Origin: a virus
Taxonomy: Duplodnaviria; Caudoviricetes
Direction: 5' to 3' (one strand)
Length of the DNA: 64,000 nucleotides
Virus record (IMG/VR): IMGVR_UViG_2687453341_000003
Location: 43,314 to 107,313 of that record
Shown here: piece after piece, positions 13,878 to 55,027 of the stretch
Layout: every line of letters begins with the position of its first letter
How positions within the stretch are numbered: the stretch's first letter is position 1
Notes under the pieces: model-generated
Told to the model about the DNA's origin: nothing
Databases searched by the model: none
The model's input: the letters and a program-made list of their open reading frames with translations, nothing else
Position numbers and translations under genes: made by a program

Positions 13878-14366
13878 ATGAACATCGATCGGGAAGTCGC
13901 ACTCATGAAGCTCATGAGCGTGGGTGAGCTTCGCAAGAAATATTGCGAAGTCTTCAAAGAGCCAACCAATGCGCGAAATAAGGTTTGGCTCATCAAACGG
14001 ATCGCTTGGCGTATGCAGGCGAATATCGAAGGAGATCTCTCCGAACGAGCGAGGCGTCGGGCCATGGAGATTGCAAACGACGCGGACATACGCATGATGC
14101 CACCACGCGAACGGAAGCCGCGTGAGTTTGTCCAGCAGCCGAATACGGTTGTCGTGAATGTTGATTCCAAGCCGACTCGTAGTCTGTCGGTAGGCCAGTC
14201 CCTCCAGCGGATTTACAAAGGGCAGAACATTGTTGTGGTCGTCCGAGGCGATGGCTTCGAATGGCAAGGGCAGAAGTACAAGTCTCTTACCGCCGTTGCC
14301 AAGGCCGTGACTGGTAAACACTGGAACGGCTTCAACTTCTTTCGCGTTGATGGGGGCAAAGCCTAA
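13878..14366 (+). CDS. DUF2924 domain protein
   Basis: L.KRIAWRMQA..EG.LS; YKSLTAVAKAVTGKHWNGFNFF. Confidence 0.9.
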   Translation: MNIDREVALMKLMSVGELRKKYCEVFKEPTNARNKVWLIKRIAWRMQANIEGDLSERARRRAMEIANDADIRMMPPRERKPREFVQQPNTVVVNVDSKPTRSLSVGQSLQRIYKGQNIVVVVRGDGFEWQGQKYKSLTAVAKAVTGKHWNGFNFFRVDGGKA

Positions 14367-21450: not shown

Positions 21451-21453
21451 CTT

Positions 21454-24695: not shown

Positions 24696-26509
24696 AACTC
24701 ATTCGCCTCAAACTCGATGTCCCCTTCCGCAGCCTTCCTCCAGGTTTCGAGATTAACTTCCTGCGCGAATGGGACTTCGACCGCAGCTTCGAATTCCATC
24801 CCTACTGCTTCGCCGGTCGCAATGGCAGCGGCAAGTCGAATGTCCTCGAAGCACTAGCTTCCATTTTTTACCACATTGAGTGCATTCATCTCGAAAATCG
24901 CCCAGTGGGATTTGAATACGACGAGGAATCGAATCCGAAAGGCTTCACCGCCAAAGTCAGTACACCGGATGCGTTTGAACTGGAATACTTCATCGGGATA
25001 AGGCTTGGATCGCTCGATGGTCTCTCATCGGAGCAGGCGAGACAATTCGATTTGTCGGGAAAGCAAAAATTTCACGTTCTTATGACGAAACGGGTTGGTC
25101 AACCGCCCATCATGCGTTGCGTGAACTTTGGCTTCCTTAATGACAAGAACGGGGAGGTACCTCGAAAAAGAGTGAAGTGGCTACTACCATCGCATGTGGT
25201 AGGGTTCTCGTCGGGAAGGAACGAGGTTTTGAGCCTTCCATTCCTAAAGATGCGGTTTATTCACTTTGACGAATATCGCTCCAAACTATTACAAGGTTCT
25301 GACTACTCTACTCCTGAGGGACGATTAGTTTTCCTTGACGAACAGTTCAGCCAAGCGATTCTGATCTGCCACTTTCTGTTTCCCAGCGATCCCGTAATTC
25401 GCGTATTTGAAGAGAAGATTGGACTCAAGGGAATTCAGCGGTTCCGACTCATCATCCGTCGACATCACCGTCTTCAACGAGCGGAAGAACATCTCAAGAC
25501 GCTGACGAAAGATGATCTGAAGGACTCCTCGAAGACCACAATCGAATTAACCTCGAAACTTTCTGGCTATTACGACGAGAACAACGCCCTGCAGCCAGGT
25601 CTCATCGACAAGCTCATCAAATGCTCGACCGCCCATTACGAGGACTACTCTGCGTATTCGGACGATGAAAGCTACGACCTATATCTGGATTACTGGATCG
25701 ACGATGAGACCAAGAAGGCATTTCGGTACTACTTTGGGGAAGCGTCCGGTGAATCACGCGAAGTTGACACAGCCAAGTCTGCTCTGAACTTGTTCCAGGC
25801 TTTTCAGACCCTGCTAACGCTCAATCACTATTCGGTTGACGAAAAGACGAAGCTTGAGTTGTACCAATCTCGCAGTCTTTATGTGAACGAGACGATCTCG
25901 ACGCCGGCGTCTCATGACCGAATCACTCGCTTTAAAGAAGGTGAGCTGATCAAAGACGGCGTTCGTGAGCCTCTCTATGTCAAAGCCCTTTCCGACGGCG
26001 AACACCAGTTCCTGCACACGATTGGCCTATGTCTGCTCTACCGCCACGAGTCTGCACTCTTTCTGCTCGACGAGCCAGAAACCCACCTCAATCCCGACTG
26101 GCGAGCGTCGTATGTCTCTACTCTGCGAGCCGCCCTCGAAGCCGACGCAGCCACGAAGAACGTGATGCGGGAAGTTCTGCTGACATCGCACTCACCGTTT
26201 ATTGTCTCAGACTGCCGAAAAGAAAACGTGCGTGTTTTCACCAAAGATCCGAAGACCCAAAAGGTGAGCTGGCAACCGCCTGACTTTGAAACGTTCGGTG
26301 CATCTGCGAATGCAATCACGATTAAGGTGTTCGGCCAAATCGAAACGATCGGTGATTATGCAATGTCGATCCTGAATGCCTTACGGCACCGGCTAGACGC
26401 TGGGGAAGATCCCGAATTACTCATCAAAGAGGCAGATAGAGCACTCGGTGACTCGGTAGAGAAAGTCCTCTTCGTGAACCAAGCCTTAAAGAAGAAAGAG
26501 GGCAAATAG
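24692..26509 (+). CDS. Restriction-system-associated ABC-type ATPase (PtuA-like)
   Basis: GRNGSGKS, LSDGEHQ, LLDEPETHLNP, TSHSP; 4-nt overlap with hsdS. Confidence 0.85.
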   Translation: MKLIRLKLDVPFRSLPPGFEINFLREWDFDRSFEFHPYCFAGRNGSGKSNVLEALASIFYHIECIHLENRPVGFEYDEESNPKGFTAKVSTPDAFELEYFIGIRLGSLDGLSSEQARQFDLSGKQKFHVLMTKRVGQPPIMRCVNFGFLNDKNGEVPRKRVKWLLPSHVVGFSSGRNEVLSLPFLKMRFIHFDEYRSKLLQGSDYSTPEGRLVFLDEQFSQAILICHFLFPSDPVIRVFEEKIGLKGIQRFRLIIRRHHRLQRAEEHLKTLTKDDLKDSSKTTIELTSKLSGYYDENNALQPGLIDKLIKCSTAHYEDYSAYSDDESYDLYLDYWIDDETKKAFRYYFGEASGESREVDTAKSALNLFQAFQTLLTLNHYSVDEKTKLELYQSRSLYVNETISTPASHDRITRFKEGELIKDGVREPLYVKALSDGEHQFLHTIGLCLLYRHESALFLLDEPETHLNPDWRASYVSTLRAALEADAATKNVMREVLLTSHSPFIVSDCRKENVRVFTKDPKTQKVSWQPPDFETFGASANAITIKVFGQIETIGDYAMSILNALRHRLDAGEDPELLIKEADRALGDSVEKVLFVNQALKKKEGK

Positions 26510-26513
26510 TCTT

Positions 26514-27587
26514 ATGCTCTTTAACTATCGCTATGTAACGCACGACATCGAGAAATTCCAAACATGGCTCCATCACCTGGTCAAGTCTGTGTGGTGCCGT
26601 AACGGAGGCGTTTATTCGCTCAGTCTTCTTCATCCAGATTTGAAAGCTGTCATCGAAGAAATCGCAAACGACGACAGCATAACCAAAGATCACCTTGACG
26701 GACCAATCAAGACGATCGACGCAATCTTTCAGAGTCAATTGACCCAGGCTCAACGAGCTCAAATGAGCCAGTGGTACGATCACAACAACGATATCGAAAC
26801 GCTCTGCGGAAACGATCCCAGTAAGTCGCCAGGAACGTATGCGGATGTCAGAGCAATCAATGCGGATTTAGAAACGGTGCTGAAGGCATTTTGCAAATGC
26901 CTATTTTCAGACGTGATTCACCTGAAAGCGGTCTCTAGTCGAACCGCTGCGATCGAGCATCACTATGATGCCTTTGTCACGGAAAACGACGAAGGCAAGT
27001 GCCCCTATTGTGGCTACAACGACATCAAGGGACTAAATAATACGAAGAAGGAAGCGTACGATCACTTTTTACCCAAGGGAACGTATCCATTCAACTCCGT
27101 GAATTTCAAGAACCTGGCATTAATGTGCCACGAGTGCAACTCAAGCTACAAACTACAAAAGGACCCGCTTCGTCATATCGACCCAATCCGAAAAGCCGCA
27201 GGCGGCACTCGCCGCAAGGCGTTTTACAGCTTTGCGAACGTGGCTCCCACCATCACGATTAGCATGACGATTGCGTCGTCGGATGTTAACAAATTGAGCC
27301 CGTCGGAGATTGCGTTGACCGTCGATGCTGCCGGCCGAGATGAAGAACTGGAGTCATGGATGGATGTTTACGGTATCGAAGAACGCTATAAGGCTAAGCT
27401 TTGCGCTAAGAATGACGGCAAGTACTGGCTTGTGCAGGCGATTGAAGAATGCGCTAATGGCGGAACGACACCTCAGAAGATCGTCGAGAAGATTGAACAA
27501 AACGCCAATTCGAATCCGTGGGCCGAAATAAACTTTCTCAAGTTCCCATTCCTTCAAGCTTGCAAAGACTCAGGCCTTCTGCGGTGA
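26514..27587 (+). CDS. HNH endonuclease (PtuB-like)
   Basis: CPYCG...DHFLPK..YP....NL..MCHECN. Confidence 0.85.
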   Translation: MLFNYRYVTHDIEKFQTWLHHLVKSVWCRNGGVYSLSLLHPDLKAVIEEIANDDSITKDHLDGPIKTIDAIFQSQLTQAQRAQMSQWYDHNNDIETLCGNDPSKSPGTYADVRAINADLETVLKAFCKCLFSDVIHLKAVSSRTAAIEHHYDAFVTENDEGKCPYCGYNDIKGLNNTKKEAYDHFLPKGTYPFNSVNFKNLALMCHECNSSYKLQKDPLRHIDPIRKAAGGTRRKAFYSFANVAPTITISMTIASSDVNKLSPSEIALTVDAAGRDEELESWMDVYGIEERYKAKLCAKNDGKYWLVQAIEECANGGTTPQKIVEKIEQNANSNPWAEINFLKFPFLQACKDSGLLR

Positions 27588-29456: not shown

Positions 29457-31396
29457 ATCGGGTAGGAGGCGGGATTACTCCCGCCGTCCTCCCACACCAC
29501 CGTACGTACGGTTCCGTATACGGCGGTTCAGGTCTAACGACGATTCAGCTCAGTGCCTTTCTGGACGAGGCTTATCAGCCCAAGTTGCGTGAGGTGGCGA
29601 GTAGGCAGGGCCTGATTCATGTGGCTAGCGCCAGCATTCCACCAGGGGCCATGACCATTGCCAGCACAGACCCACGCTCGCACGCGGTCAATGCCAAGGC
29701 GAGTCAGTTCGCGGGCTCGTTTGGGCGGACGCTTCCATTGGCGCCAGTAGATGGCGCGTAACTTCCTGCGTAACCAGCTATCAAGTTCCTCGAACGTTTT
29801 CTTCACTTCACTCTTCCGGTAGTACGACACCCAACCGATCAGGACCGGCTGCAACTGAGCAAGCACCGTACGCACATTGCGACCTCGTGCCTTGCGGAGT
29901 TCCTCGCGTAGGCGACCCTTGAAGCGTTTGACCGATTCAGGAGACACCTTAAACTTCGGTTGGTGATGGTGCGTGAACGTATAGCCCAGGAACTTGCGGT
30001 TCCAGGGGCGGTCCACGGCACTCTTGGCTCGATTCACTGTCAGTCGCAGTTTCTCGCTCAGGAAGCGTTCGACACCATTAAGCACTCGCTCACCGGCGCG
30101 GTGACTGCGAACGTAAATGTTACAGTCATCAGCGTAGCGAACGAATTTGTGGCCTCGGCGTTCCAGCTCCTTGTCCAGCTCATCGAGCAGGACGTTGGAC
30201 AGAAGCGGTGATAAGGGACCGCCTTGCGGCGTTCCCTCGCTGCGTGGACTCACGATGCCGCCTTCCATGATGCCAGCTTGCAGATACAAGCGGATCAGTT
30301 TCAGGATGCGTTTGTCTTGGATCTGACGTGCAAGGCGACTCATCAGGATGTCGTGATTGACGCGATCGAAGAACTTTTCCAAGTCCATGTCGACAACCCA
30401 GCGATGCCCTGAAGCAATGTGTTCCTTGGCACGATCCAACGCCTGATGCGTACTCCGGCCTGGGCGAAACCCAAAGCTAGAATCCGAAAACATTGGATCG
30501 TAGAGCCTCGTGAGCACTTGCAGTAAAGCTTGCTGGATCAAGCGATCTAGCACTGTCGGTATGCCCAGCATGCGCATCCCTTTGCCACCGGGTTTAGGTA
30601 TTTCTACCTTTCGCACAGGGCTCGGACGATACGTTCCGCTGAACAGTTCTTCCCGGTGGCGTTCCCAATGCTCTCGGCAGTAGCCTGGCAGTTCATCGAC
30701 GGTCACCCCATCAACGCCTGCGGCTCCTTTATTACCGACAACACGGCTCAACGCCTGCAACATATTGCTGCGGCTTAGCACCTCCTCCATCGTGACGGTG
30801 ACTGAATGTTCAGTGTTCTCATTGCATGCCGGAAGTGTTTGACGCGCGTACGAATTACCCTCAGCGGTTCCGCCGCATACTCTTGTTCGCCGCTCAGGCT
30901 TCTCAGCCGTCATCTCTGCGTCTACCTCACATCACGAATACTTTGCACCAAACGGTTAAACTTGTTCGGCCCTTCGTCAGCTAAAGCCTCCGACTACTAT
31001 GGCCTCTGCTGACTTCTACGGTGACATCGTAACCTCTTGCGAGGCAACTAGCTTTGCAGCATCCCCGTAGATCTCTCAGGGTAAGACGCGTAACTTTCCT
31101 CTCGTATATTCGCCGCATATACGCCGACTCGGTCCGAATGACATTGGGCTTTGAATCTTCGTGCCTTCTCGCCCACCGGGTCGTCGCCTCGTATACGGTT
31201 CGTGTACCTCGAACCGAGAGTTTGCCTGCTGCTTCCTTCAGATTCAGAGTTGCCCCTGACACCCTTGCAGTCGACTAGGAGTTCCTGTCATCAAGGCCTC
31301 CATCGGGACTTGCACCCGACAAGTTACTTCCTGGTTCACTTTCGCTTGCCAGTTGCGAGCGTCAGTCAATGACGCTCCGCGTCATGCCTGACGCAC
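29457..31396 (-). mobile_element. Group IIC intron
   Basis: 5' GTGCGTCAGGCATGACGC; 3' domain V/VI GAACCGCCGTATACGGAACCGTACGTACGGTGGTGTGGGAGGACGGCGGGAGTAATCCCGCCTCCTACCCGAT; inserted after a terminator. Confidence 0.92.
29534..30913 (-). CDS. ltrA: Group II intron reverse transcriptase/maturase (no endonuclease domain)
   Basis: NKGAAGVDG, LGIPTVLDRLIQQA, GTPQGGPLSPLL, RYADD. Confidence 0.95.
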   Translation of the reverse strand: MTAEKPERRTRVCGGTAEGNSYARQTLPACNENTEHSVTVTMEEVLSRSNMLQALSRVVGNKGAAGVDGVTVDELPGYCREHWERHREELFSGTYRPSPVRKVEIPKPGGKGMRMLGIPTVLDRLIQQALLQVLTRLYDPMFSDSSFGFRPGRSTHQALDRAKEHIASGHRWVVDMDLEKFFDRVNHDILMSRLARQIQDKRILKLIRLYLQAGIMEGGIVSPRSEGTPQGGPLSPLLSNVLLDELDKELERRGHKFVRYADDCNIYVRSHRAGERVLNGVERFLSEKLRLTVNRAKSAVDRPWNRKFLGYTFTHHHQPKFKVSPESVKRFKGRLREELRKARGRNVRTVLAQLQPVLIGWVSYYRKSEVKKTFEELDSWLRRKLRAIYWRQWKRPPKRARELTRLGIDRVRAWVCAGNGHGPWWNAGASHMNQALPTRHLTQLGLISLVQKGTELNRR

Positions 31397-42350: not shown

Positions 42351-42785
42351 TCACTTGCACCGATACCTTCTCCAAAATCGGCCGCAGCTCCACACGCTGC
42401 GGCCGATTCGTTTTGATACAGAATTGTGTGCACGATGCGACCACCAAAAGAACTCGATTCGAGAATGAAACCTCGGTGGATCCAGTTCCTTAAATCCGGC
42501 CCAATGCCGTCGGCAGGCGCCGCACGGAATCGATATCGATTCCCACATCCGATACCACGCTTCGATATCGGCCCATGTCTGCAGTCGAAACGCGACTCGA
42601 TGAAGTGGCACCCACCCAACGTCAAAAACGTGATCCTGCAGGAGCGGAGCCGGAACCGCGATCGATGGTTGAGTGGGCGCGGAGTCCAATTGCGATGGGT
42701 ACAAACTGGCGAATTCACTCGGAGTGATTTCCCCACGCAACAACCGCAGCACCGGGTTTACAACCGAGAAAACTGGATCGTCCAT
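42351..42785 (-). CDS. Erv1/Alr-family FAD-linked sulfhydryl oxidase
   Basis: GWVPLH, IPCGACRRHW (CxxC), FFWWSHRAHNSVSKRIG match Erv/Alr motifs W..LH, PCxxCxxH, WxxxxHNxVxxRLG. Confidence 0.8.
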   Translation of the reverse strand: MDDPVFSVVNPVLRLLRGEITPSEFASLYPSQLDSAPTQPSIAVPAPLLQDHVFDVGWVPLHRVAFRLQTWADIEAWYRMWESISIPCGACRRHWAGFKELDPPRFHSRIEFFWWSHRAHNSVSKRIGRSVWSCGRFWRRYRCK

Positions 42786-43960
42786 GTGCCGAGGTCCAAT
42801 GGTGCAATGACTGGATCCGGAGAGCTACCGTCCATGGTTTCTTCTACAAATCGGTAGCTAGTTTGGCAATGTCGATACGCTCGATTGAAGCCGGATCCAC
42901 CGGGCGGTGTAGGAGTAATCGGTGTGCAGTCGCTATAGGGCGATGCTCCTAATGTGTCTGTGAGGAAAGCAGGGCATGTGCTGGTAACGGTCGTGTCTGA
43001 AGAAGACCAACTGACAGGGGATGTAATCGTAGGAGCAGCATCGGACCCATAGCTCGGAATGGAACACTTTGTCCCGCATGAGTCAGTGAATGCTGAGATC
43101 GGAAGAACATCGCTGGGGAGAAAATCGAAGTCTTTACAGAAGGACTTCGCGAATGCGTAAGTGGTACCAAAGCCGGGTGTGAGCGTGTCCTCGGAAATCC
43201 ACGGCATCATACCGGCATTTGCATTCACTCCACTAAACCACGGGCCTATCCCAAAACAGGCAGTGCCGTATTCGGTTGGGTCACATGGCGTGGGAACATT
43301 GAAACTGGCCGATTCCCATCCCGTCAATCCGTTCACTGTCTCGAAGTGGCACCCTGTATTGGGGCGACCATCGTTTGTCTTGTTGAGAATTCGAGTCTCG
43401 ACGAAGTGGGTGCCGTAGATGGTGAATGCAATACGCACCTTGCAAATGCCACCTACGATGATTGGGTGCACGGTAACGCGGTACTGATTTAGCGTGAAAT
43501 GATAGAACCAGGCCAACGCCTTCGAAATGGTGATGAATGTCGTGTAGGTCCATTTATCGACGGGAGTGTAAGCACCTCCTGTAATTCGATCCTGCTGGGA
43601 AACGTTCCAAGTCTCCAAACGACGGTTGCGGTAATGCTTCCAGTAGCCCCATTGGTAATAGGGTCCATACCCAGCCAAAGCTGGGAGACTGAATTGTGCA
43701 GCTCCGCAACATGTCTTGGTATTCCCCATGGTCCCGGACACGGTCCACTGCGATCGCAAGGAGTTGGTGATCGCAATCGAAACTTGCCCCCATCGGGGTA
43801 CTCGGCACTTTCCAGCATGGCCACCGCATGGAACGCATCCGCCGGTACCGACGAGCTCCGCGTCGCACCACAAACATTGATGGGGAACTTCCAACGGAGC
43901 ATAGCTACCTGGTGGAGTTTCCCCGATCGGTCCCCCGATTGGTTCTAATGTTTCAGTCAT
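42758..43960 (-). CDS. Cysteine-rich (17 Cys) tail-operon protein
   Basis: 400 aa, Thr/Gly/aromatic-rich, after tape-measure downstream genes; overlaps Erv gene by 28 nt. Confidence 0.7.
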   Translation of the reverse strand: MTETLEPIGGPIGETPPGSYAPLEVPHQCLWCDAELVGTGGCVPCGGHAGKCRVPRWGQVSIAITNSLRSQWTVSGTMGNTKTCCGAAQFSLPALAGYGPYYQWGYWKHYRNRRLETWNVSQQDRITGGAYTPVDKWTYTTFITISKALAWFYHFTLNQYRVTVHPIIVGGICKVRIAFTIYGTHFVETRILNKTNDGRPNTGCHFETVNGLTGWESASFNVPTPCDPTEYGTACFGIGPWFSGVNANAGMMPWISEDTLTPGFGTTYAFAKSFCKDFDFLPSDVLPISAFTDSCGTKCSIPSYGSDAAPTITSPVSWSSSDTTVTSTCPAFLTDTLGASPYSDCTPITPTPPGGSGFNRAYRHCQTSYRFVEETMDGSSPDPVIAPLDLGTWTIQFSRL

Positions 43961-43976
43961 CCTTTTCCTTTCCGCG

Positions 43977-44711
43977 TTACTCGATGCACCATGGAACCGT
44001 GATGACGAATCGATTACCCAACCACATTGCGATTCCTTGGTCTCCGATCAGCTGCAGTGCGGCGCATCCGTATGAATCGACAACGAACGCATTGGGCCCG
44101 AGCGACAGTTGTGCGTTTGTCGCGGCGGGTGGCACCTGGCGGTTCTGCGTCAGCGTGTAGGTTAGGAAGTTGCTGACACAGTTGAGATCGCACAAAGCGA
44201 ATCCGTTTCCGAGATCCGCAATCTTCCGCGCGAACCCAAACCCGGAGCTCACGGCCGCAGAGTCTTGGTAGCTGGCCGTTTTAACTCGAGGGAGAACAAA
44301 CCCGGCTCCTGAGTCACACTTAATCTCGACCGTTCCGGATACCGCAACGTCGCCAAATGCGTTGGCCTCGATTGCATCTCCCACCACAACTCCAACGTTG
44401 AAGAGTGAGCTCGCTAGTTCGTTTGCTTCGGTGATATTGATGGGTAGGTAACATGGATGCACATTCAACCATCCGTTGCGACTATTCCCCCATCCCGTTC
44501 CCTCGCCCGTATAAGTCCCCAGAATCACGGGACTACCTGGCTGCAAGGTGTAGGTGCAGTTGTTCTTGGCAACGACCGATACAAAACGGTGGGAAGTTCG
44601 ACCGCTGATCGCCCGTGCACCCGCTTGTTCACCCTGGATCGCCAGAAGGCGATTGAACGCCCTGGCGGAGACATCGTTGATCCTCGAACCCTTCTTAAGC
44701 CGAGATTGCAT
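43977..44711 (-). CDS. Putative tail tip/baseplate protein
   Basis: Second gene after tape measure; probable start MQSRLKKG. Confidence 0.55.
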   Translation of the reverse strand: MQSRLKKGSRINDVSARAFNRLLAIQGEQAGARAISGRTSHRFVSVVAKNNCTYTLQPGSPVILGTYTGEGTGWGNSRNGWLNVHPCYLPINITEANELASSLFNVGVVVGDAIEANAFGDVAVSGTVEIKCDSGAGFVLPRVKTASYQDSAAVSSGFGFARKIADLGNGFALCDLNCVSNFLTYTLTQNRQVPPAATNAQLSLGPNAFVVDSYGCAALQLIGDQGIAMWLGNRFVITVPWCIE

Positions 44712-44712
44712 T

Positions 44713-45567
44713 TCAAAGCCCCAGTAAGGTCGGTGCGAACTCGTCGTAGACACGTTCGACATATGCCCACTTCGGGCGTCTCACGCGGCTGCCGCTCACT
44801 ACGTTGTGCTCGTACTTCACCCAGACGTAGTCATGCCCCTTTTTGGCAATGCCCGATATGGCTCCGATCGCATAGGACGCGATGTTCTGCGATGCCGCGA
44901 AATGGTACTCCACCTCGTTGTCTTTGTAGGGAACGTACTCACCACTCGCCCCCAAGAAGAGCAGTTCACCAGCACCGAAAGTTTGCCAGGGAACCGAATT
45001 GGTTCTGCCGGTGTAGGCTGCCATGGCCTTCATATAGTCGATAAAGGACGTTGGGCCGAACAGCGTGCTGTTCTTGTTCCACCTCTTCCGAACGCTGAGT
45101 TTGAGTGCGGGAAGAATGATCTCCACGCCTTGTGCTTCGTTCTCGTCGTTGACGTCAATGGAGCCCTGATGGTCCGGAGCTCCTGCAGGATAACGCTGGG
45201 TTGCCCGAGAGGTGAAAACCTTCACTGTCCCCCCCTGGGTATCAAACGACCACCGATAAATCGATTCGCTGATCTCGGCAGTCCGGTAATTCACATCGAA
45301 GATGAATCGCTTTGTGTCGTCATCTTCTCGCCATGAGATCTTGCCTCGATAAAGGGTCTGAACGTCGCTACTGGAACTCGGAGTCTGTACATAAAAGCCC
45401 GGTACATTGCTTCGCAAATGGTTCAAGCAATTCGGGAAGTACTGCTCGTCGTTCCTTTCGGCTGGAGTATTCGCCCAAACCTCCCACGAGAGATTCATTT
45501 CATCATCCGCACCACGGTCCGTCGCGCTACCCGTGGCACCGCAAAGCATTTTGATTCGAAACGCCAT
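44713..45567 (-). CDS. Putative distal tail/hub protein
   Basis: First gene after tape measure; GELLFLGASG, KKGHDYVWV, YVERVY. Confidence 0.6.
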   Translation of the reverse strand: MAFRIKMLCGATGSATDRGADDEMNLSWEVWANTPAERNDEQYFPNCLNHLRSNVPGFYVQTPSSSSDVQTLYRGKISWREDDDTKRFIFDVNYRTAEISESIYRWSFDTQGGTVKVFTSRATQRYPAGAPDHQGSIDVNDENEAQGVEIILPALKLSVRKRWNKNSTLFGPTSFIDYMKAMAAYTGRTNSVPWQTFGAGELLFLGASGEYVPYKDNEVEYHFAASQNIASYAIGAISGIAKKGHDYVWVKYEHNVVSGSRVRRPKWAYVERVYDEFAPTLLGL

Positions 45568-45571
45568 CGAT

Positions 45572-47656
45572 CTAATCCTTCATCCCTTCGCGTTCCTCAC
45601 GCTTCTTTTCTTTCGCGATCTTCACGAGTTCCCCGGTGTTCTTCGCCGTGGATTCCATCGCGGTATTCCTGCCTAATCCGGATAGCATCGAACCGAGTGC
45701 TGAGAACGTTCCGGAATTCGGTGCACCACCCTTTACCGCACCCGTTGCTCCTGCAAGGAGTGCCTGCGGGCCTCCCGCCATTTGCTCTGCGCTCGCTTCT
45801 TTTCTCTCTCGTTCCGCATTGGCGGCATTGAGTGCGTTGTTAAGAGCTTCCTGGGCCTGCCGGGCCTTATCTCCGAGAGTATTCAAACCTTGCTCGGCTG
45901 CCGCTTGGTTGGCCTCTTGTTGGTATTGATTCAACTCGTCTTGCAGCTTCTTCTCCGCAGCGGCTCGTTGGCCCATATTGCTAAGGTTCGCGGCGTCACG
46001 TCGTCTCATGCTGGCGTTGTAGGCCTTGTCATCTTCTCGTTGGGCTTGGGCCTGCATTTCCGAGAGGACATTTCCGATCCCTTGACCGTTGAAGCTTTCT
46101 CGAACTGTATTGAAGAGGTCTTTCTTACCGATGTACTCAAAGATGGGTTCGAGGTAGCCGAGCAAATCATAGAACCGTTGGCCAATCCAAACGATGGATT
46201 GTGCGATGCCAAACACCATCGTGCGAAAGGCAGTGCGCATCCCCCACACGATGCCATCCCAAACCGTCCCCATACCGGTAGCTGCCATGTCCCAAAAGAA
46301 CTTGATTCCATTCCACGCCTTCAAGACCGTCAAACGAACGTTGCCCATGGCGATGGCTGCCATCAGGTCCCATCGCCCTGCGAGAATTGCTTTACCGATG
46401 GAGCCAGTCGCTTCCCATACCCCACCGAGCAACGAATCGAGAGCAGTCCAAGCGAGAGCTTGAAACCCAGCCCAAGCGATCGCGGCAGCACCTTCAATAT
46501 CGCCGGATCGCATCGCGGCCACGATTCCGTTGAAAGTACTTGTAAAGATCCCCCATAGAACCATTAGTGCGTCAATCGCAGGCTGGATAAATGCGATCAG
46601 CGGAGCCAATAGGATGGCCAACTCGGACCGAAACGAATAGGCGGCGACAGCCAGCCCCACGAGGATGCCGATGAGAATTCCCATCGGGCTCAGAACAAAT
46701 GCGGCCACGGCAACCAGTGACCCGATTGCGGAGCCAATCAGCCCGACAGCGAACGATGCTCCCATGATGACAGCACCGAGCCCCATGAATGCCCCCGCAA
46801 CCGAGACGACCACGAGAGCCACGGTACCAATCGTTTGGAACAACTCCCCATTCTTCTCCACGAAGTTGGTGATGACCTTCGAAAGCGTGATTCCAATCTG
46901 GGTGAATGTCTTCAGCGTTGGGAGCATTGCATTGCCAAGTGCCCGAGCAACGATCGCGGCATTATCCATCAACGTGGAGAACAACCCGGTGAGTGTCGCG
47001 GACTGCTTCTGCATCATCCCATTGAACCGACCACCGGGCCCGGAAGCGGAAGCAAAAGCCGTGGCGAGCATTCGAGAGGAGATTTGACCTGCTTCCATTT
47101 CCTCGGAAAGCTTGGCCATAGATTTGCCAGTGATCCGCGAAATCTCCTGAAGTGGATTGAAACCGGCTTCAATCATCTGATTGACTTCCTGGCCCATCAG
47201 ACGACCTTTACCCATGACTTGGCCAAATGCGAGAGCGAGGCGGGAAAAACGCTCGGCATCTCCTCCCGATACATCTCCGAGATTCCTAAGCGTTGGTAAC
47301 AGGGCGTCGGCGCTCACCCCAAAATTGAGCAACGTTTGTGCACCGTCTTTGAGTTGGTCGAATGTGAATGGGGTTTCAGCCCCCAACTGCTCGATCTCTT
47401 TGAGCTTCTTCTCAGCGAGGTTTGCATCGCCGAGGAACACCGCAAAGGATGTCTTCGTTTGCTCCATGTTGGCAGCGAGCTTGATGGGCCATGCGAGCGC
47501 AGCCCCCATCCCGGCGCCAATGACACCGCCACTCGTTGCCATCATGGTACCGAACTGTCGTAGTCGTTTCTCAGCTACTTTGAGGCCCTGCTGCATGCGG
47601 TCTCGAATACTCAAGAGGACGTGAGCTCTACCCGCTTCTATGTCTTTGGCTGCCAT
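45572..47656 (-). CDS. Tail tape measure protein
   Basis: AETPF, LGDVSGG, FGQV..KGRLMGQEVNQM.EAG, GG.F.G.M..QS.TL.G..STL.D. Confidence 0.92.
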   Translation of the reverse strand: MAAKDIEAGRAHVLLSIRDRMQQGLKVAEKRLRQFGTMMATSGGVIGAGMGAALAWPIKLAANMEQTKTSFAVFLGDANLAEKKLKEIEQLGAETPFTFDQLKDGAQTLLNFGVSADALLPTLRNLGDVSGGDAERFSRLALAFGQVMGKGRLMGQEVNQMIEAGFNPLQEISRITGKSMAKLSEEMEAGQISSRMLATAFASASGPGGRFNGMMQKQSATLTGLFSTLMDNAAIVARALGNAMLPTLKTFTQIGITLSKVITNFVEKNGELFQTIGTVALVVVSVAGAFMGLGAVIMGASFAVGLIGSAIGSLVAVAAFVLSPMGILIGILVGLAVAAYSFRSELAILLAPLIAFIQPAIDALMVLWGIFTSTFNGIVAAMRSGDIEGAAAIAWAGFQALAWTALDSLLGGVWEATGSIGKAILAGRWDLMAAIAMGNVRLTVLKAWNGIKFFWDMAATGMGTVWDGIVWGMRTAFRTMVFGIAQSIVWIGQRFYDLLGYLEPIFEYIGKKDLFNTVRESFNGQGIGNVLSEMQAQAQREDDKAYNASMRRRDAANLSNMGQRAAAEKKLQDELNQYQQEANQAAAEQGLNTLGDKARQAQEALNNALNAANAERERKEASAEQMAGGPQALLAGATGAVKGGAPNSGTFSALGSMLSGLGRNTAMESTAKNTGELVKIAKEKKREEREGMKD

Positions 47657-47668
47657 CGAATTCGATTC

Positions 47669-48232
47669 CTATCTGGTGACCCAGAGATTTCCAATGGTGC
47701 CCGCTTTGATTTCTGCGTCCAACGCGGGCCCCATGAATGGACGAGGTTCATAACGAGCCATGTAATGGACCTTTTCAGCGTCCTTCCAACGTTCCCCTTT
47801 TCGATCACCGTACAGCCACACACCCGATATCGAACTGGTTCTCTCTCCTGTGAGCCTCGTTTTGGTGACCATCGAAGTACCGCCCTTTTCGAGCAGCTCG
47901 GGGACGGTCCTGCGGTTGGACCGCTTTAGCCTGGCACTCGGTACCACACGAGGACCGATGACAACGGATTCCCAATCCTTGCTGAGAAAGAACAGGATGT
48001 TGCGAAGGTTTGCGAACGAATCTCGCGAACGAACGCTCGGAGGTTCTCCCGGCTTCGAAACTCGCTTTCGGCGGCGAAGAATGGCCGTGCGTGCTCTCTG
48101 CCGAATGAACGCCCCGGCCTTCGACAACCGTTTATGATTCTCTGCCGTTATCGCGTTGATAACTCGAGCGCGATCGAAGAAGAGATCTTTCGCGCTCGCG
48201 TGGATATTGAACTCGGACGCTATCTTTGCCAT
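47669..48232 (-). CDS. HK97 gp10-like neck/tail completion protein
   Basis: Basic; LSKAGAFIR..AR, S.PG.PP, PRPFMGPAL. Confidence 0.6.
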   Translation of the reverse strand: MAKIASEFNIHASAKDLFFDRARVINAITAENHKRLSKAGAFIRQRARTAILRRRKRVSKPGEPPSVRSRDSFANLRNILFFLSKDWESVVIGPRVVPSARLKRSNRRTVPELLEKGGTSMVTKTRLTGERTSSISGVWLYGDRKGERWKDAEKVHYMARYEPRPFMGPALDAEIKAGTIGNLWVTR

Positions 48233-48235
48233 CGG

Positions 48236-48484
48236 TCAGGCGACCTTTCCACGTCTCTTCAGACGCTCGTATTCGTGTTCGATCGCAATGGACCCGTATT
48301 CACTGCGACGTTTCCGATACGGATTCAAATCAAACGGATGCACGGATTCCGTGCAATGAATGACCTGCAACATCGCGATCCGATCCCACGATTCTCTTTG
48401 ATACGCGAGGTACATCGTTCGCAACTCGCGAGCACTGTAAGGGCCGGGATCCACTTGAAGAATCCCAGACCATTCGAAAATCAT
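48236..48484 (-). CDS. Tail assembly chaperone C-terminal part (T-like)
   Basis: VDPGPYS.REL..M motif; in -1 frame relative to upstream gene, with ATGA overlap. Confidence 0.55.
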   Translation of the reverse strand: MIFEWSGILQVDPGPYSARELRTMYLAYQRESWDRIAMLQVIHCTESVHPFDLNPYRKRRSEYGSIAIEHEYERLKRRGKVA

Positions 48485-49023
48485 CTTCCAGCACTGTCTA
48501 GCAAGCTTCCGGGCTTTGCCTCGAGCGCGTCGAATTCGGCGTTCATTCGCTCGATCGCTTCGCGTTCCATTCTGCTGGCCAGTTTCTGCGTCCGCTGATC
48601 GGCGATCGCTGCGGCCTGTTCCATGATCCGATTCGCCGATTCCATTGCCCGCTCGGCCACGACGGCGTAATGCTTGTGGCCGAGACGGCGGAAAAAATCG
48701 GCAAAGGAGTACTCGATCGAGGACTGCATGGATGTAAACGAATGCTCTTCCTGCGTCAGCAGATCGGAGAATTGCTCGTAGCACATCCCTTTATGCTGCC
48801 ACTCATCTCGCATCATCTCGGCGACGAATTCGATCAGCGAGAGTGGTGATGAGAACAGCTTTTTAACCGTTTCGGGGTTTAGAACGTCGATTCCATCCCC
48901 TTTTAGACGTCGAGCTTTGGAAATGGTGATTCGGAAATCCCACTTTGATCCTGCAGCATCGGTCCAGGTAGTTGTTCGGAGAGAATCGGGTCGGGGTTCG
49001 ACGGTGTCAATTGATTGAGACAT
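48481..49023 (-). CDS. Tail assembly chaperone (G-like)
   Basis: W.D..G..W, helical, DFF motif; upstream of tape measure. Confidence 0.65.
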   Translation of the reverse strand: MSQSIDTVEPRPDSLRTTTWTDAAGSKWDFRITISKARRLKGDGIDVLNPETVKKLFSSPLSLIEFVAEMMRDEWQHKGMCYEQFSDLLTQEEHSFTSMQSSIEYSFADFFRRLGHKHYAVVAERAMESANRIMEQAAAIADQRTQKLASRMEREAIERMNAEFDALEAKPGSLLDSAGR

Positions 49024-49175
49024 GCTTCGGCAATCTTGTCGTGCACAGGTAACGCGACTTCGTCCCCGTAACCCTCATGGGCCTTGACCGTATTCCGAAT
49101 GGCGATCCCGTGATCGAGCTTTGGGTCGATGGTCTTTTCAATTGAACGGAGTTGGCCGAGGGTAACGGTTTGCAT
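48903..49175 (-). CDS. Hypothetical protein
   Basis: First ORF of minus-strand tail operon; overlaps next gene by ~120 nt. Confidence 0.35.
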   Translation of the reverse strand: MQTVTLGQLRSIEKTIDPKLDHGIAIRNTVKAHEGYGDEVALPVHDKIAEACLNQLTPSNPDPILSEQLPGPMLQDQSGISESPFPKLDV

Positions 49176-49497
49176 GATGTCGCCATGTGCGAAGTGGATG
49201 GATCTCTAAGAATAAATTCGCAAGGTTGAGCCGAAGGCATCCAACCTCGCGAATACACCACGTTGGACGAACGTGGCCAACAACGGAGGAGTCATGCCTA
49301 GACCATCTCACGAATCGCATGTGGTGTCCCCTCGGGCTGAAGACTCCGTCGTTAGAAAGTAACTCCGCAGTGCGCACCGCGATGATGCGCCGATATGGTC
49401 CGCTGCTAGGATGGGACCCGTCACGCGGGCGGAAAAGCATGATGCAGCGAATGGATTCGCTCCGCCCGCGTTCTTCAAACTCGATAGGGCACACAGG

Positions 49498-52807: not shown

Positions 52808-55027
52808 ATGGTCGCCTCTGATGATGACTCGCCTGGCGATCGGTACCGACGCCGGAAGGAGCGGGAACGACAACGCCAGGCGGATCAGTCCCGCGAGGGT
52901 CGCGATATTGGCCCCATCCCGAAGGTAAAGGATGCGAAGCTCCGGGAACGGTGCATCAAGTCGTTTCGAGCGTTCTGCGAAGTTTGCTTTCCTGCCAAAT
53001 TCAAAATCGACTGGTCTCCGGATCACATCGAGGTTCTCGCCCGGATCCAGGCCTGTATCGTCGACGGCCAGCTCTACACGTTGGCCATGCCGCGTGGATC
53101 CGGGAAAACGACCATTGTTCAGGTCGCATGCCTCTGGGCGATTCTCACCGGCCGTCGAAAGTACGTCGCACTCATCGGCGCCGATCGCGACGCGGCAATC
53201 AAGCTCTTGGTGGCCCTCAAAGCCGAACTGGAATCTAACGACCGGCTGCTCGAACTCTTCCCAGAAGCGGTGTTTCCGATCCGAGCCCTACAGGGACGCG
53301 GGAACAAGGCGATTGGCCAACTTCACCTCGGCAAACGCACACACATCGAGTGGAAGGGGCCTCGGATCGTTTTCCCGACCGTTCGGGCCAAAGTAGACGA
53401 GGACGCGGGAAAAGGCCCAAAACGGCCCTCAGCCGCGAAGCGAAAGAGCACCAAAGAACCCCCTGTGGCTGAAACGGAGGTCGATCGCGAGGAAAATGGA
53501 GTCGATCGCGCAAACCTCACCCCATGCTCGGGTGCGGTAATCGAATGCTGCGGGATCCTCGGGAGAGTCCGGGGAATGAACCACACGACGCCTGCCGGAG
53601 AGCAAATTCGGCCCGACCTATTCGTGCTGGACGATCCCCAGACGGACCGTTCGGCCGTCTCGACGAGTCAGGTCAACCGAAGGCTTTCCATCATCACCGG
53701 TGCAGTACTCGGTTTGGCGGGGCCCGATGTCGCGATCGCAGGGTTCGCAACGGTAACCGTGATCGCCAAGGATGATGTCGCGGATCAATTGCTCGACCGC
53801 GAGAAGTTTCCCGATTGGCAAGGAAAACGCTACCAGCTGGTATACAAGTGGCCAGACCGTATGGACCTATGGGAACAGTACGCTGTTCTCCGGGCCGAAG
53901 GCCTCCGGACCGAAGGTTCGTTTGCCGCAGCGACCGAATGGTATCTGCAGAATCGCGACGAGATGGATCGTGGTTCCAAAGTCTCTTGGGACGGACGGTA
54001 CAAGCCTGGCGAGATATCCGCCCTCCAATCCGCGTTCAATCAGAAGCTCCGATCCCCAGCGACGTTCGACGCAGAGTTTCAGAACAGTCCGCAGGATCAA
54101 ACAATCGATGTCGAAATGATTTCGATCGAATCGATCGAATCGAAGATTTCGAACTATGCCCGCAGCGAGCTCCCGATCGAAGCGAATCTCATCACCGCCT
54201 TTATCGATGTTCAGGGCCAACTTCTGTATTACATCGTCGTGGGATGGGAGAAAGATACTTACTCCGGATGGGTACTGGAGTATGGCACCTGGCCGGAACA
54301 AGTCGCGAAACATTTTTCCCTTCGAAACGCACAATCCACGCTCACTCGAAAGTATCCTCGCCGTGGGCTAGAAGGGCGTTTGACGGCTGGCCTGAATGAT
54401 TTGATCAACTACTTGGCGGAATGCCGTTACTCGGTACCGTCCCAACAGTCCGACCCTCGCACCGCGTCAATCGAGTTGATCGGAATCGACCAGGCCTGGG
54501 GACCGTCGACCAAAACGGTGAGGGCTATCTGTGCTGGCCATCCTAAAAGGCAATTGCTGCTCCCATGCCAGGGTAAGGCCTTCGACGTCGGGGCGAGGAA
54601 CCTCAACGAGTGGGCCATCAAACCGGGTGAGCTTCGAGGTGACAATTGGATCGTGAAACACAGCACCGACGGTGGTCGCCATTGCCTCGCGGATAGTAAT
54701 GCGTTTAAATCATTCGTGAATGCACGGCTAAACGTCGCGACGGGTGACCCTGGGTCGCTCTCTCTCTATCGTCCACGTTTGGCCACCGAACATCGATTGA
54801 TCGCGGAACACTGGCGAGCGGAAAAACCGCAAACCCGATCCGACGGGGATCGAAGTATTGAGAAGTGGGTATTGCCTCCAGCCAAACCAGACAACCACTG
54901 GTGGGACGGGCTTTATTGGAGTGCAGTACTCGCGAGCATTCGCGGTGCACGACTTGGTTCGATCATCAAGTTGGAACCGAAACGCGTGAAGAAGCCAAAG
55001 CGAAGGCCAACAAAACTCATCGCATAG
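52808..55027 (+). CDS. Terminase large subunit (GpA-like nuclease domain)
   Basis: AMPRGSGKTT, RPDLFVLDDPQ, F.AEFQN.P, FIDVQ, DNHWWDG. Confidence 0.88.
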   Translation: MVASDDDSPGDRYRRRKERERQRQADQSREGRDIGPIPKVKDAKLRERCIKSFRAFCEVCFPAKFKIDWSPDHIEVLARIQACIVDGQLYTLAMPRGSGKTTIVQVACLWAILTGRRKYVALIGADRDAAIKLLVALKAELESNDRLLELFPEAVFPIRALQGRGNKAIGQLHLGKRTHIEWKGPRIVFPTVRAKVDEDAGKGPKRPSAAKRKSTKEPPVAETEVDREENGVDRANLTPCSGAVIECCGILGRVRGMNHTTPAGEQIRPDLFVLDDPQTDRSAVSTSQVNRRLSIITGAVLGLAGPDVAIAGFATVTVIAKDDVADQLLDREKFPDWQGKRYQLVYKWPDRMDLWEQYAVLRAEGLRTEGSFAAATEWYLQNRDEMDRGSKVSWDGRYKPGEISALQSAFNQKLRSPATFDAEFQNSPQDQTIDVEMISIESIESKISNYARSELPIEANLITAFIDVQGQLLYYIVVGWEKDTYSGWVLEYGTWPEQVAKHFSLRNAQSTLTRKYPRRGLEGRLTAGLNDLINYLAECRYSVPSQQSDPRTASIELIGIDQAWGPSTKTVRAICAGHPKRQLLLPCQGKAFDVGARNLNEWAIKPGELRGDNWIVKHSTDGGRHCLADSNAFKSFVNARLNVATGDPGSLSLYRPRLATEHRLIAEHWRAEKPQTRSDGDRSIEKWVLPPAKPDNHWWDGLYWSAVLASIRGARLGSIIKLEPKRVKKPKRRPTKLIA

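What the first reader, a model, noticed from the sequence alone, without database searches (positions are those of the whole stretch)
42351..43960. Prophage-encoded Erv1/Alr sulfhydryl oxidase coupled to a Cys-rich tail gene: candidate cytoplasmic disulfide-bond system in a tailed phage
Seen: the last gene of the minus-strand tail operon encodes a 144-aa protein with the three Erv/Alr signature blocks in order (GWVPLH; PCGACRRHW; WWSHRAHNSVSKRIG). It has no signal peptide and overlaps by 28 nt a 400-aa gene with 17 Cys. Established: Erv/Alr FAD oxidases are typical of eukaryotes and nucleocytoplasmic large DNA viruses (e.g. vaccinia E10R, ASFV pB119L), which use them to form disulfides in virion proteins in the reducing cytoplasm; bacteria normally use periplasmic DsbA/DsbB. 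Inference: this phage oxidatively folds a disulfide-bonded tail-tip protein in the host cytoplasm. I know of no characterised example in tailed phages, though unannotated homologs may exist.
Basis: partly seen in the sequence, partly recalled or inferred. Interest (0 to 1): 0.92.

Follow-up and report, generated by a model that had tools for sequence, protein, structure and literature searches.

The report
Prophage Erv oxidase beside cysteine-rich tail protein
A prophage in a planctomycete genome carries a small flavin-type disulfide-forming enzyme, of a kind otherwise known from eukaryotes and giant viruses, overlapping a cysteine-packed tail gene, so the phage probably cross-links its own tail protein inside the bacterial cell.

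Summary
ORF 42351-42785(-) is 144 aa and scores above Pfam's Erv1/Alr cut-off (36.6 against 27.6 bits). It matches solved Erv1, Erv2, ALR and ASFV pB119L by sequence. It folds with confidence into their helical bundle. It overlaps by 28 nt a 400-aa gene with 17 Cys, the third gene after the tape measure.

New here: this genome has three Erv genes. Each is the last gene of a prophage tail operon and overlaps a ~400-aa protein with 17-18 Cys. These partners rank in the top 18 of 3302 long ORFs for Cys content. Their cysteines are almost all invariant. The pairing recurs in other Pirellulaceae genomes and IMG/VR contigs.

Caveats: one related phage keeps the 17-Cys partner but has an Erv homolog without the His-Asn motif and with CxC in place of CxxC. 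The partner could not be modelled. No biochemistry exists.

Eight literature searches found no phage Erv. Earlier notes of this scan report the same pairing on other DNA. Best reading (0.6): a dedicated oxidase-substrate pair that forms disulfides in the cytoplasm.

The parts
42351..42785 (-). Erv/ALR-family FAD-type sulfhydryl oxidase, 144 aa. Residues 1-55 form an N-terminal extension and residues ~57-143 the Erv core.
   Evidence: PF04777 36.6 bits against a cut-off of 27.6. PDB sequence hits to Erv1p, Erv2, ALR and pB119L. AF2 mean pLDDT 85.5, core blocks 95-98. The 27 best-ranked rows shown by Foldseek against PDB are all Erv, ALR, pB119L, R596 or QSOX.
42513..42524 (-). Codons of the putative redox-active C88-G-A-C91 motif.
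   Evidence: C88 and C91 are invariant in a 50-sequence family alignment. They lie at the start of model helix 89-101. Codons were read.
42758..43960 (-). Cysteine-rich 400-aa protein with 17 Cys, the presumed substrate. By position it is a tail-tip or receptor-binding protein.
   Evidence: 17 Cys, 4.25%. Rank 18 of 3302 ORFs of at least 250 aa in the genome for Cys fraction. 17 of 17 Cys are invariant in homologs at 89% and 56% identity. No Pfam, PHROG or PDB match.
42758..42785 (-). 28-nt overlap of the two genes. The Erv ATG lies inside the end of the Cys-rich gene.
   Evidence: Similar overlaps of 37, 34 and 25 nt occur in L004, L005, L006, L009 and L056.
43977..44762 (-). 261-aa tail-module protein with 7 Cys, function unknown.
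   Evidence: Position between the post-tape-measure gene and the Cys-rich gene. 33% identical homolog at the same position in L057. No family or PDB hit.
44713..45567 (-). 284-aa protein directly after the tape measure. A distal-tail-like role is inferred from position only.
   Evidence: no hits. 33% identical homolog in L057.
45572..47656 (-). Tail tape measure protein, 694 aa.
   Evidence: PF20155 TMP_3 at 109 bits; phrog_9959 at E 5.5e-42.
47669..48784 (-). Two upstream tail-module ORFs of 187 and 182 aa, with no family match.
   Evidence: Weak homologs in the same order in L057.
42376..42408 (+). 13-bp-stem hairpin followed by a T-run, read on the + strand. It lies inside the 3' coding part of the Erv gene and is a likely terminator of the convergent + strand gene that ends at 42333.
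   Evidence: 13 pairs, 9 G-C. It covers the codons for RIGRSVWSCGRF.

Best explanation
A siphovirus-like prophage of a planctomycete (probably Pirellulaceae) encodes a dedicated two-gene module at the end of its tail operon. The module is a ~400-aa, all-beta-looking protein with 17 cysteines (by position the tail tip or receptor-binding protein) and, overlapping its last 28 nt, a compact Erv/ALR-type flavin sulfhydryl oxidase.

Proposed mechanism:
- The two genes are made together late in infection (translational coupling; inferred).
- The oxidase holds FAD in its helical bundle. Its C88-x-x-C91 disulfide takes electrons from the partner's thiols and passes them through the flavin to oxygen. 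This is family chemistry, not shown here.
- The partner therefore gains disulfide bonds while still in the reducing cytoplasm, before assembly onto the tail.
- No conserved shuttle disulfide and no thioredoxin-like relay was found, so oxidation is probably direct.
- The 55-residue N-terminal extension is a candidate docking element (inferred).

The gene sits in the slot where many phages encode a tail-fibre assembly chaperone (that slot is recalled, not tested). It is best seen as an oxidative assembly factor for one virion protein.
For: Enzyme identity:
- PF04777 above the cut-off. Sequence matches to solved Erv1p, Erv2, ALR and pB119L.
- AF2 core pLDDT 95-98. Foldseek TM 0.56-0.70 by target, rmsd 2.4-3.3 A over ~90 residues to ALR, Erv2p, Erv1, AtErv1 and pB119L. 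All named rows among the top 50 BFVD matches are giant-virus sulfhydryl oxidases.
- W58, C88 and C91 are invariant, and L61, H62, P87, W115, H120, N121 and V123 at least 90% conserved, in 50 family members of which 49 hit PF04777.

Coupling:
- All 3 Erv matches in the 6.53-Mb genome lie at the end of prophage tail operons. Each overlaps a 396-400-aa protein with 17-18 Cys.
- Those three partners are among the 18 most Cys-rich of 3302 ORFs of at least 250 aa (genome median 1.19% Cys).
- The window prophage and the L004-type prophage share no BLAST-detectable similarity in the tape measure, the post-tape-measure gene or the Cys-rich gene. Their Erv cores are 52% identical.
- The same adjacency is seen in L006, L007, L009/L011, L016, L017 and L054.

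Cysteines under selection:
- 17 of 17 invariant at 56% identity.
- 15 of 18 invariant at 42% identity.
- 10 invariant plus 6 at least 90% conserved across 11 sequences reaching down to 27% identity.

Mobile, not host:
- PF04777 matches in 4 of 201 genomes of the family sample (2 over the cut-off) and 1 of 401 of the phylum sample, both counts including this genome.

Background:
- Erv oxidases of large DNA viruses act in virion morphogenesis (passages read in PMC10598087).
Against: - No experiment exists: FAD binding, activity, disulfides and virion location are all untested.
- The Cys-rich protein could not be modelled (pLDDT 33.7), so no cysteine pairing can be read.
- 17 is an odd number of cysteines. 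The N-terminal C29-x2-C32-x9-C42-x2-C45 cluster has the spacing of a zinc site (my reading of the sequence).
- In a syntenic relative (L056/L057 and L058) the partner keeps 17 Cys, but the overlapping 141-aa Erv homolog has no Pfam hit. It is 26% identical (pairwise E 1e-13). His-Asn is replaced by Lys-Ser, the H62 position is not conserved, and CxC replaces CxxC. It is still intact, with pN/pS about 0.24 from only 10.5 synonymous and 8.5 non-synonymous differences. So the partner's cysteines can persist without a canonical oxidase next door.
- In the wider IMG/VR set of Erv genes (giant viruses included), only 2 of 25 loci with a callable Erv ORF had a neighbour of at least 200 aa and at least 4% Cys directly upstream.
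- No thioredoxin-like relay was found among the 48 window ORFs scanned.
- The host's thiol-reducing systems would oppose cytoplasmic disulfides.
Confidence: 0.6

Rival explanations
1. The Erv-fold protein is mainly a non-catalytic assembly chaperone for the Cys-rich protein, like a tail-fibre assembly protein. The redox motifs are dispensable or vestigial.
For: It lies immediately downstream of, and overlaps, the presumed receptor-binding gene. A syntenic homolog has lost His-Asn and the CxxC spacing yet stays intact with pN/pS about 0.24. That homolog keeps the N-terminal extension, e.g. the N-P-x-L-x-x-x-R-G-E stretch.
Against: The window's copy, and its relatives L004, L005, L009 and P0002-P0006, keep C88, C91, W58, H62, H120 and N121. 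These are the positions conserved across the whole family at 20-45% identity, which argues for retained chemistry. No similarity to any known chaperone family was found.
Confidence: 0.15
2. The partner's cysteines are metal ligands (zinc or iron-sulfur), or they oxidise spontaneously after lysis. The oxidase then acts on something else, such as other virion proteins or host proteins during takeover or lysis.
For: The CxxC-x9-CxxC cluster and the odd Cys count. The motif-less Erv homolog sits beside a fully Cys-conserved partner. The 261-aa neighbour also has 7 Cys.
Against: Recurrent, overlapping adjacency to the most Cys-rich protein of each tail module, in phages whose other tail genes have diverged beyond recognition. 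Most of the 17 Cys are scattered singly through 400 residues rather than lying in ligand-like clusters.
Confidence: 0.12
3. The genes are decaying or silent cargo of a defective prophage with no present function.
For: No RNA evidence could be obtained. The module order is unusual, with the terminase separated from the portal by an inverted tail block.
Against: All ORFs are intact. Close homologs of both genes exist in other genomes and metagenomes with conserved cysteines and motifs. The partner shows strong purifying selection in the related pair (pN/pS 0.09). Portal, protease, capsid, head-tail joining, tape measure and terminase genes are all present.
Confidence: 0.05

Closest known systems
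ASFV pB119L (PDB 3GWL) and vaccinia E10R: compact Erv-family oxidases of nucleocytoplasmic large DNA viruses
   Same: A small virus-encoded Erv domain with a single CxxC and no signal peptide, thought to act in the cytoplasm on virion proteins. Best target-normalised TM-score here: 0.70, rmsd 2.4 A over 91 columns. Their role in virion morphogenesis is stated in passages of PMC10598087.
   Different: The host here is a bacterium and the virus is a tailed phage. Identity is only ~22%. No thioredoxin-like relay partner was found (the existence of such partners for E10R and pB119L is recalled, not from a call). The gene is fused into a tail operon and overlaps one specific Cys-rich gene. It carries a 55-residue N-terminal extension.
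Cellular Erv1, ALR and Erv2 (PDB 1OQC, 1JR8/1JRA, 4E0H, 2HJ3)
   Same: Pfam family, helical-bundle fold, CxxC at the start of a core helix, and the conserved Trp, His and His-Asn positions.
   Different: It lacks the Cys that precedes His-Asn in ALR and Erv1, having Ser instead (alignments); only 17 of 142 top relatives have that Cys. It has no conserved shuttle disulfide: C134 and C143 are present here, but C143 is missing in the closest relatives. It is not organellar.
Giant-virus sulfhydryl oxidases (mimivirus R596, PDB 3GWN; pandoravirus and pithovirus entries in BFVD)
   Same: Same fold. Several share the W-[ST]-V-x-A-H-N-x-V-N type motif with many metagenomic relatives.
   Different: In a quick tree of 105 Erv domains, the window's clade of 8 rows groups apart (SH-aLRT 87) from the giant-virus contigs and from the ALR-like group. 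The backbone is unresolved, so no origin can be named.
Phage tail-fibre assembly chaperones (lambda Tfa, T4 gp38; recalled)
   Same: The position of the gene, directly downstream of the presumed receptor-binding gene.
   Different: No sequence or fold similarity. This protein has an oxidase fold and active-site motifs.
Bacterial DsbA/DsbB periplasmic disulfide system (recalled)
   Same: The net outcome, disulfide bonds in exported or extracellular proteins.
   Different: A different fold, cofactor and compartment. The two proteins here lack signal peptides (judged by eye) and phage tails assemble in the cytoplasm.

Membership tests
Erv1/ALR sulfhydryl oxidase family (Pfam PF04777) | Profile HMM match above the curated gathering score | tested here: met
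   36.6 bits against 27.6, residues 58-142 on profile positions 4-93 of 93. A six-frame genome search gives 37.3 bits.
Erv1/ALR sulfhydryl oxidase family (Pfam PF04777) | Helical-bundle Erv fold | tested here: met
   The AF2 model has helices 59-67, 71-85, 89-101, 109-126 and 134-142, with core pLDDT 95-98. Foldseek PDB: ALR, Erv2p, Erv1, AtErv1 and pB119L at probability 1.00, TM by target 0.56-0.70. BFVD: giant-virus sulfhydryl oxidases.
Erv1/ALR sulfhydryl oxidase family (Pfam PF04777) | Redox-active CxxC at the N-terminal end of a core helix next to the flavin | tested here: met
   C88-G-A-C91 is invariant in 50 sequences and lies at the start of helix 89-101. That it adjoins the flavin is assumed from the family (recalled), not modelled.
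Erv1/ALR sulfhydryl oxidase family (Pfam PF04777) | Conserved flavin-contact positions (Trp and His of the first core helix, His-Asn of the fourth) | tested here: met
   W58 is invariant. H62, W115, H120 and N121 are at least 90% conserved in the 50-sequence alignment and present in the window protein. That these residues contact FAD is recalled.
Erv1/ALR sulfhydryl oxidase family (Pfam PF04777) | Bound FAD and oxygen-dependent thiol oxidase activity | not testable with these tools
   Needs purified protein.
Erv1/ALR sulfhydryl oxidase family (Pfam PF04777) | Homodimer | not tested
Erv1/ALR sulfhydryl oxidase family (Pfam PF04777) | Structural disulfide of ALR and Erv1 (Cys three residues before His-Asn, paired with a Cys ~16 residues on) | tested here: not met
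   Ser117 stands at that position (alignments). Only 17 of the 142 top relatives with a readable motif have the Cys, so this marks a subgroup and does not define the family.
Erv1/ALR sulfhydryl oxidase family (Pfam PF04777) | Second, shuttle disulfide on a flexible arm | tested here: inconclusive
   C134 and C143 exist in the window protein. C143 is absent from P0002 and P0003. L004, L005 and L009 have only the CxxC pair.
Viral cytoplasmic disulfide pathway of poxvirus type (Erv oxidase, relay protein, thioredoxin-like protein, virion substrates; the pathway is recalled) | Virus-encoded Erv oxidase without a signal peptide | tested here: met
   The prophage context comes from the portal, S49 protease, capsid, head-tail joining, tape measure and terminase genes. 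The absence of a signal peptide was judged by eye.
Viral cytoplasmic disulfide pathway of poxvirus type (Erv oxidase, relay protein, thioredoxin-like protein, virion substrates; the pathway is recalled) | Virus-encoded thioredoxin- or glutaredoxin-like relay | tested here: not met
   None of the 48 window ORFs scanned against Pfam matched a thioredoxin-type family. ORFs under ~70 aa were not scanned.
Viral cytoplasmic disulfide pathway of poxvirus type (Erv oxidase, relay protein, thioredoxin-like protein, virion substrates; the pathway is recalled) | Disulfide-bonded virion proteins as substrates | tested here: inconclusive
   The candidate substrate is named by adjacency, Cys content and Cys conservation. 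The structure model failed. There are no virion data.
Tail-fibre assembly chaperones | Homology to a known chaperone family | tested here: not met
   No PHROG match, and only the Erv match in Pfam.

The most novel reading that the evidence does not exclude
The pair is a redox device for adsorption. The oxidase loads the tail-tip protein with strained or exposed disulfides. These then undergo thiol-disulfide exchange with the cysteine-rich YTV proteins of the planctomycete cell wall, so that the phage binds covalently to, or cuts through, a protein wall held together by disulfides. This would explain why the gene pair is concentrated in phages of Pirellula-type hosts. [quoted passage not shown] Nothing here tests the exchange.
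Probability: 0.07. Interest if true: 0.9.

Novelty: new variant of a known kind. Interest (0 to 1): 0.72.

Why it matters
Erv oxidases are described as a trait of eukaryotes and their large DNA viruses. One recent analysis states that bacterial homologs are absent (passage in PMC10598087).

A tailed phage that brings its own flavin oxidase, hard-wired to one cysteine-rich tail protein, would show that bacteria's viruses also solve the problem of making disulfide-bonded virion proteins in a reducing cytoplasm. They would do so with the same enzyme family as giant viruses.

It gives a directly testable two-gene system: co-expression, disulfide mapping and prophage mutants. It could also be a compact natural tool for cytoplasmic disulfide formation in bacteria. 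It bears on where the viral Erv genes came from. The motif-less homolog offers a natural comparison between the catalytic and non-catalytic roles of the fold.

Tried and rejected
Structure of the 400-aa protein. AF2 on a 3-sequence alignment gave mean pLDDT 33.7, which is unusable. The ESM Atlas holds the same sequence at pLDDT 0.30 with no usable feature hit, and its structure rows all have TM under 0.5. A PDB profile search found nothing. The 284-aa and 261-aa neighbours also had no PDB sequence hit.

Homology between the two Cys-rich partner families (window type A2, L004 type A3/A7). BLASTP gave E 0.039 out of register. hhalign gave probability 0.3% and 0.1%. A forced MAFFT alignment shows colinear short motifs: CC-[GW]-AA, G-C, LG-x-[SD]-PY and a terminal WTI. 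I treat that as suggestive only.

Wider searches:
- tblastn of the Erv protein against 50,697 deposited phage records found no match at E 0.01.
- PHROGs had no family for it.
- The metagenome scan gave one short 1848-base locus, L012, which I did not use.
- The wide IMG/VR scan mixes giant-virus and phage-like contigs. 13 of 44 loci gave no Erv ORF in my crude gene set and were dropped from the neighbour count.
- The two weak family-sample hits, G038 and G060 (22.9 and 22.5 bits, inside 756- and 905-aa frames), were not followed up.

Expression. No RNA holder was listed. Laying four metagenome runs showed only partial contigs, 85-99% alike, over parts of the tail module. That shows relatives in other samples but nothing about transcription.

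Tree. The quick tree of 105 Erv domains has an unresolved backbone (54 of 101 inner branches open), so no origin is claimed. Seven rows without a readable motif were skipped, six near-duplicate loci were left out, and representatives over 260 aa were left out.

Discarded result. The third comparison printed (L004 against L005 Erv) was out of frame through my own slip and is discarded.

Literature. Eight searches were made. None listed a paper on an Erv oxidase in a tailed phage or prophage. I saw only listings, plus passages of PMC10598087, PMC6372840 and PMC8567305. Supplements were not opened.
Full report
1. The observation.
One search lists a 144-aa ORF at 42351..42785(-) and a 400-aa ORF at 42758..43960(-). 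They overlap by 28 nt: the Erv ATG is at 42785 and the upstream gene's TAA ends at 42758. The 400-aa protein has 17 Cys and the small one has 4, at positions 88, 91, 134 and 143.

Upstream on the same strand lie a 261-aa ORF, a 284-aa ORF and a 694-aa tape measure protein (PF20155 109 bits; phrog_9959 E 5.5e-42). Downstream is a convergent + strand gene that ends at 42333. The Erv gene is therefore the last gene of the tail operon.

The surrounding DNA is phage. It holds a lambda-type portal, an S49 protease, a major capsid protein, a head-tail joining protein, a gpA-type large terminase, a DNA methylase and a large serine recombinase. The window lies in a single-contig genome of 6.53 Mb.

2. 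The small protein is an Erv/ALR enzyme by every test available.
- Pfam PF04777 scores 36.6 bits against a cut-off of 27.6.
- phmmer against PDB chains returns Erv1p, Erv2, yeast Erv1, ASFV pB119L and ALR at E 6e-5 to 1e-3.
- An AF2 model from a 50-sequence alignment has mean pLDDT 85.5, with 95-98 across residues ~60-140.
- The 27 best-ranked rows that Foldseek shows against PDB are all Erv, ALR, pB119L, R596 or QSOX. For the best of them TM by target is 0.56-0.70 and rmsd 2.4-3.3 A over ~90 residues.
- Against BFVD, every named row among the top 50 is a giant-virus sulfhydryl oxidase. Nine rows carry no name.
- In the 50-sequence alignment, 49 members hit PF04777. W58, C88 and C91 are invariant. 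L61, H62, P87, P103, P104, W115, H120, N121 and V123 are at least 90% conserved.
- C88-G-A-C91 sits at the start of helix 89-101.

The ALR-type structural Cys before His-Asn is replaced by Ser. Only 17 of 142 top relatives have that Cys, and 24 of 142 have CxC instead of CxxC. C134 and C143 could form a second disulfide, but C143 is not conserved.

3. How rare is it?
An exhaustive phmmer search of 1.84 billion representatives gave 399 hits at E up to 1e-3. Only 6 reached E up to 1e-10, and the nearest is 66% identical.

PF04777 was found in 4 of 201 genomes sampled from the host's family, with 2 over the cut-off and none in the 2 other genomes of the same genus. It was found in 1 of 401 genomes sampled from the phylum. 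Both counts include this genome. The gene is therefore mobile cargo and not a host gene.

Record titles of related loci name Pirellulaceae.

4. The coupling to a Cys-rich gene recurs.
The genome has three PF04777 matches. The other two lie in a pair of near-identical prophages, L004 and L005. Their order is major head protein ... tape measure (752 or 739 aa) - 277 or 305 aa - 106 aa - 396 aa with 18 Cys - Erv of 136 or 135 aa, overlapping by 37 or 34 nt.

Among 3302 non-overlapping ORFs of at least 250 aa in the genome, the median Cys content is 1.19% and only 18 reach 4.25%. The three Erv neighbours are among those 18 (this is a crude ORF set, not gene calls).

The window prophage and the L004 type share no BLAST-detectable similarity in the tape measure, the next gene or the Cys-rich gene. 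Their Erv cores are 52% identical.

The same arrangement appears in these loci:
- L006, a Pirellulaceae chromosome.
- L009/L011, IMG/VR contigs, with a 413-aa partner of 17 Cys and a further 314-aa protein of 18 Cys.
- L007, a Pirellulaceae MAG, where an Erv domain lies in a 370-aa ORF that scores 24.6 bits (below the cut-off), preceded by proteins of 226 aa with 10 Cys and 219 aa with 11 Cys.
- L054 in genome G153, with an Erv of 173 aa at 25.0 bits, preceded by proteins of 425 aa with 16 Cys and 504 aa with 14 Cys.
- L016 (574 aa, 28 Cys) and L017 (203 aa, 10 Cys).
L008 and L010 duplicate L004 and L005.

The pairing is not general to viral Erv genes. In the wide IMG/VR set, 25 loci had a callable Erv ORF, and only L016 and L017 had such a neighbour. 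Many of the rest are giant-virus contigs.

5. The cysteines are under selection.
In the window-type partner family, 17 of 17 Cys are invariant at 89% and 56% identity. In the L004-type family, 15 of 18 are invariant at 42% identity. Across 11 sequences reaching down to 27% identity, 10 are invariant and 6 more are at least 90% conserved.

Neither family matches Pfam, PHROGs or PDB. The two families are not demonstrably homologous, although colinear short motifs hint at it.

6. A counter-example.
A second prophage in the genome that holds L006 (loci L056/L057), and an IMG/VR contig (L058), are syntenic with the window's tail module. Identities are 33% for the 284-aa protein, 33% for the 261-aa protein and 55% for the Cys-rich protein.

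There the overlapping downstream ORF of 141 aa is a homolog of the window's Erv: 26% identical over 140 residues, pairwise E 1e-13, including the N-terminal extension. It has no Pfam hit. His-Asn is replaced by Lys-Ser, the H62 position is not conserved, and the motif reads F-C-S-C. The Pfam search of that genome found only the L006-type Erv.

The ORF is intact in both sources, with pN/pS about 0.24 from few differences. Its partner has pN/pS 0.09. So either the fold also has a non-catalytic, partner-binding role, or that phage uses another oxidant. This lowers my confidence in a strict oxidase-substrate reading but does not touch the window's copy, which keeps every family motif.

7. Mechanism.
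Shown: family membership, fold, motif conservation, gene overlap, recurrent synteny, Cys enrichment and Cys conservation.
Inferred:
- co-translation of the two proteins late in infection;
- FAD-dependent transfer of electrons from the partner's thiols through C88/C91 to oxygen;
- direct action without a relay, since no thioredoxin-type match was found in 48 scanned ORFs;
- docking through the N-terminal extension;
- a tail-tip or receptor-binding role for the partner, from its place as the third gene after the tape measure.

The N-terminal CxxC-x9-CxxC cluster of the partner may bind zinc instead.

8. What is known.
Erv oxidases of large DNA viruses, such as E10R and Ac92, act in virion morphogenesis. 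A recent analysis states that bacterial homologs are absent (passages of PMC10598087). The mimivirus R596 structure paper was seen only as a listing and abstract start.

Eight full-text searches listed no paper on an Erv oxidase of a tailed phage. No deposited phage genome matched by tblastn and PHROGs has no family for it.

Earlier notes of this scan describe the same kind of pair in other genomes. Those are unchecked AI notes and I did not count them as evidence. One of them mentions a CxC site, which I then counted myself (24 of 142).

9. Verdict.
I rate it a new variant of a known kind, namely virus-encoded cytoplasmic disulfide formation, here in tailed phages as a two-gene tail module. 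Interest is 0.72.

Noticed in passing
window 42376-42408 (+): A perfect 13-bp-stem hairpin with a T-run lies inside the 3' coding part of the Erv gene (codons RIGRSVWSCGRF). It looks like the terminator of the convergent + strand gene that ends at 42333. The same peptide is kept in relatives P0002 and P0003, so C134 may be held by RNA structure as much as by protein function.
   Followed up: partly
L056 1097-1522 (-) and L058 7143-7568 (+): A 141-aa homolog of the Erv protein that has lost His-Asn (now Lys-Ser) and has CxC in place of CxxC. It still overlaps a 17-Cys partner and is intact in two sources. It may be a pseudo-enzyme or chaperone form.
   Followed up: partly
G000:C1:5098000-5117900 (L004) and G000:C1:4133000-4152900 (L005): Two near-identical prophage copies lie elsewhere in the same genome. 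Their Cys-rich proteins are 96% identical, and each has its own Erv and 18-Cys pair.
   Followed up: yes
window 6134-7987 (-): An AAA_24-type ATPase gene is interrupted by an intein with a LAGLIDADG homing endonuclease domain. It sits next to a PD-(D/E)XK nuclease at 8008-9054.
   Followed up: no
window 29534-30913 (-): A group II intron reverse transcriptase/maturase (RVT_1 plus GIIM) lies just upstream of the phage head genes.
   Followed up: no
window 18652-27587 (+): A type I restriction-modification system (HsdR, HsdM) with an AAA_21/AbiEii-like ATPase sits between the serine recombinase (14366-15925) and the head module. It may be defence cargo of the prophage.
   Followed up: no
window 32032-55027: The module order is unusual. 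Portal, protease, capsid and further genes run on the + strand up to 42333. The tail operon is inverted on the - strand (42351-49494). The large terminase (52808-55027, +) lies beyond it.
   Followed up: no
proteins P0002-P0151: Among the 150 best Erv relatives, 24 of 142 with a readable motif have CxC instead of CxxC. 50 carry three or more Cys in an N-terminal extension, often with zinc-ribbon-like CxxC...CxC spacing.
   Followed up: partly
L009 4971-5915 (+): The IMG/VR relative carries a second Cys-rich protein (314 aa, 18 Cys, 5.7%) two genes upstream of the 413-aa partner and Erv pair.
   Followed up: no
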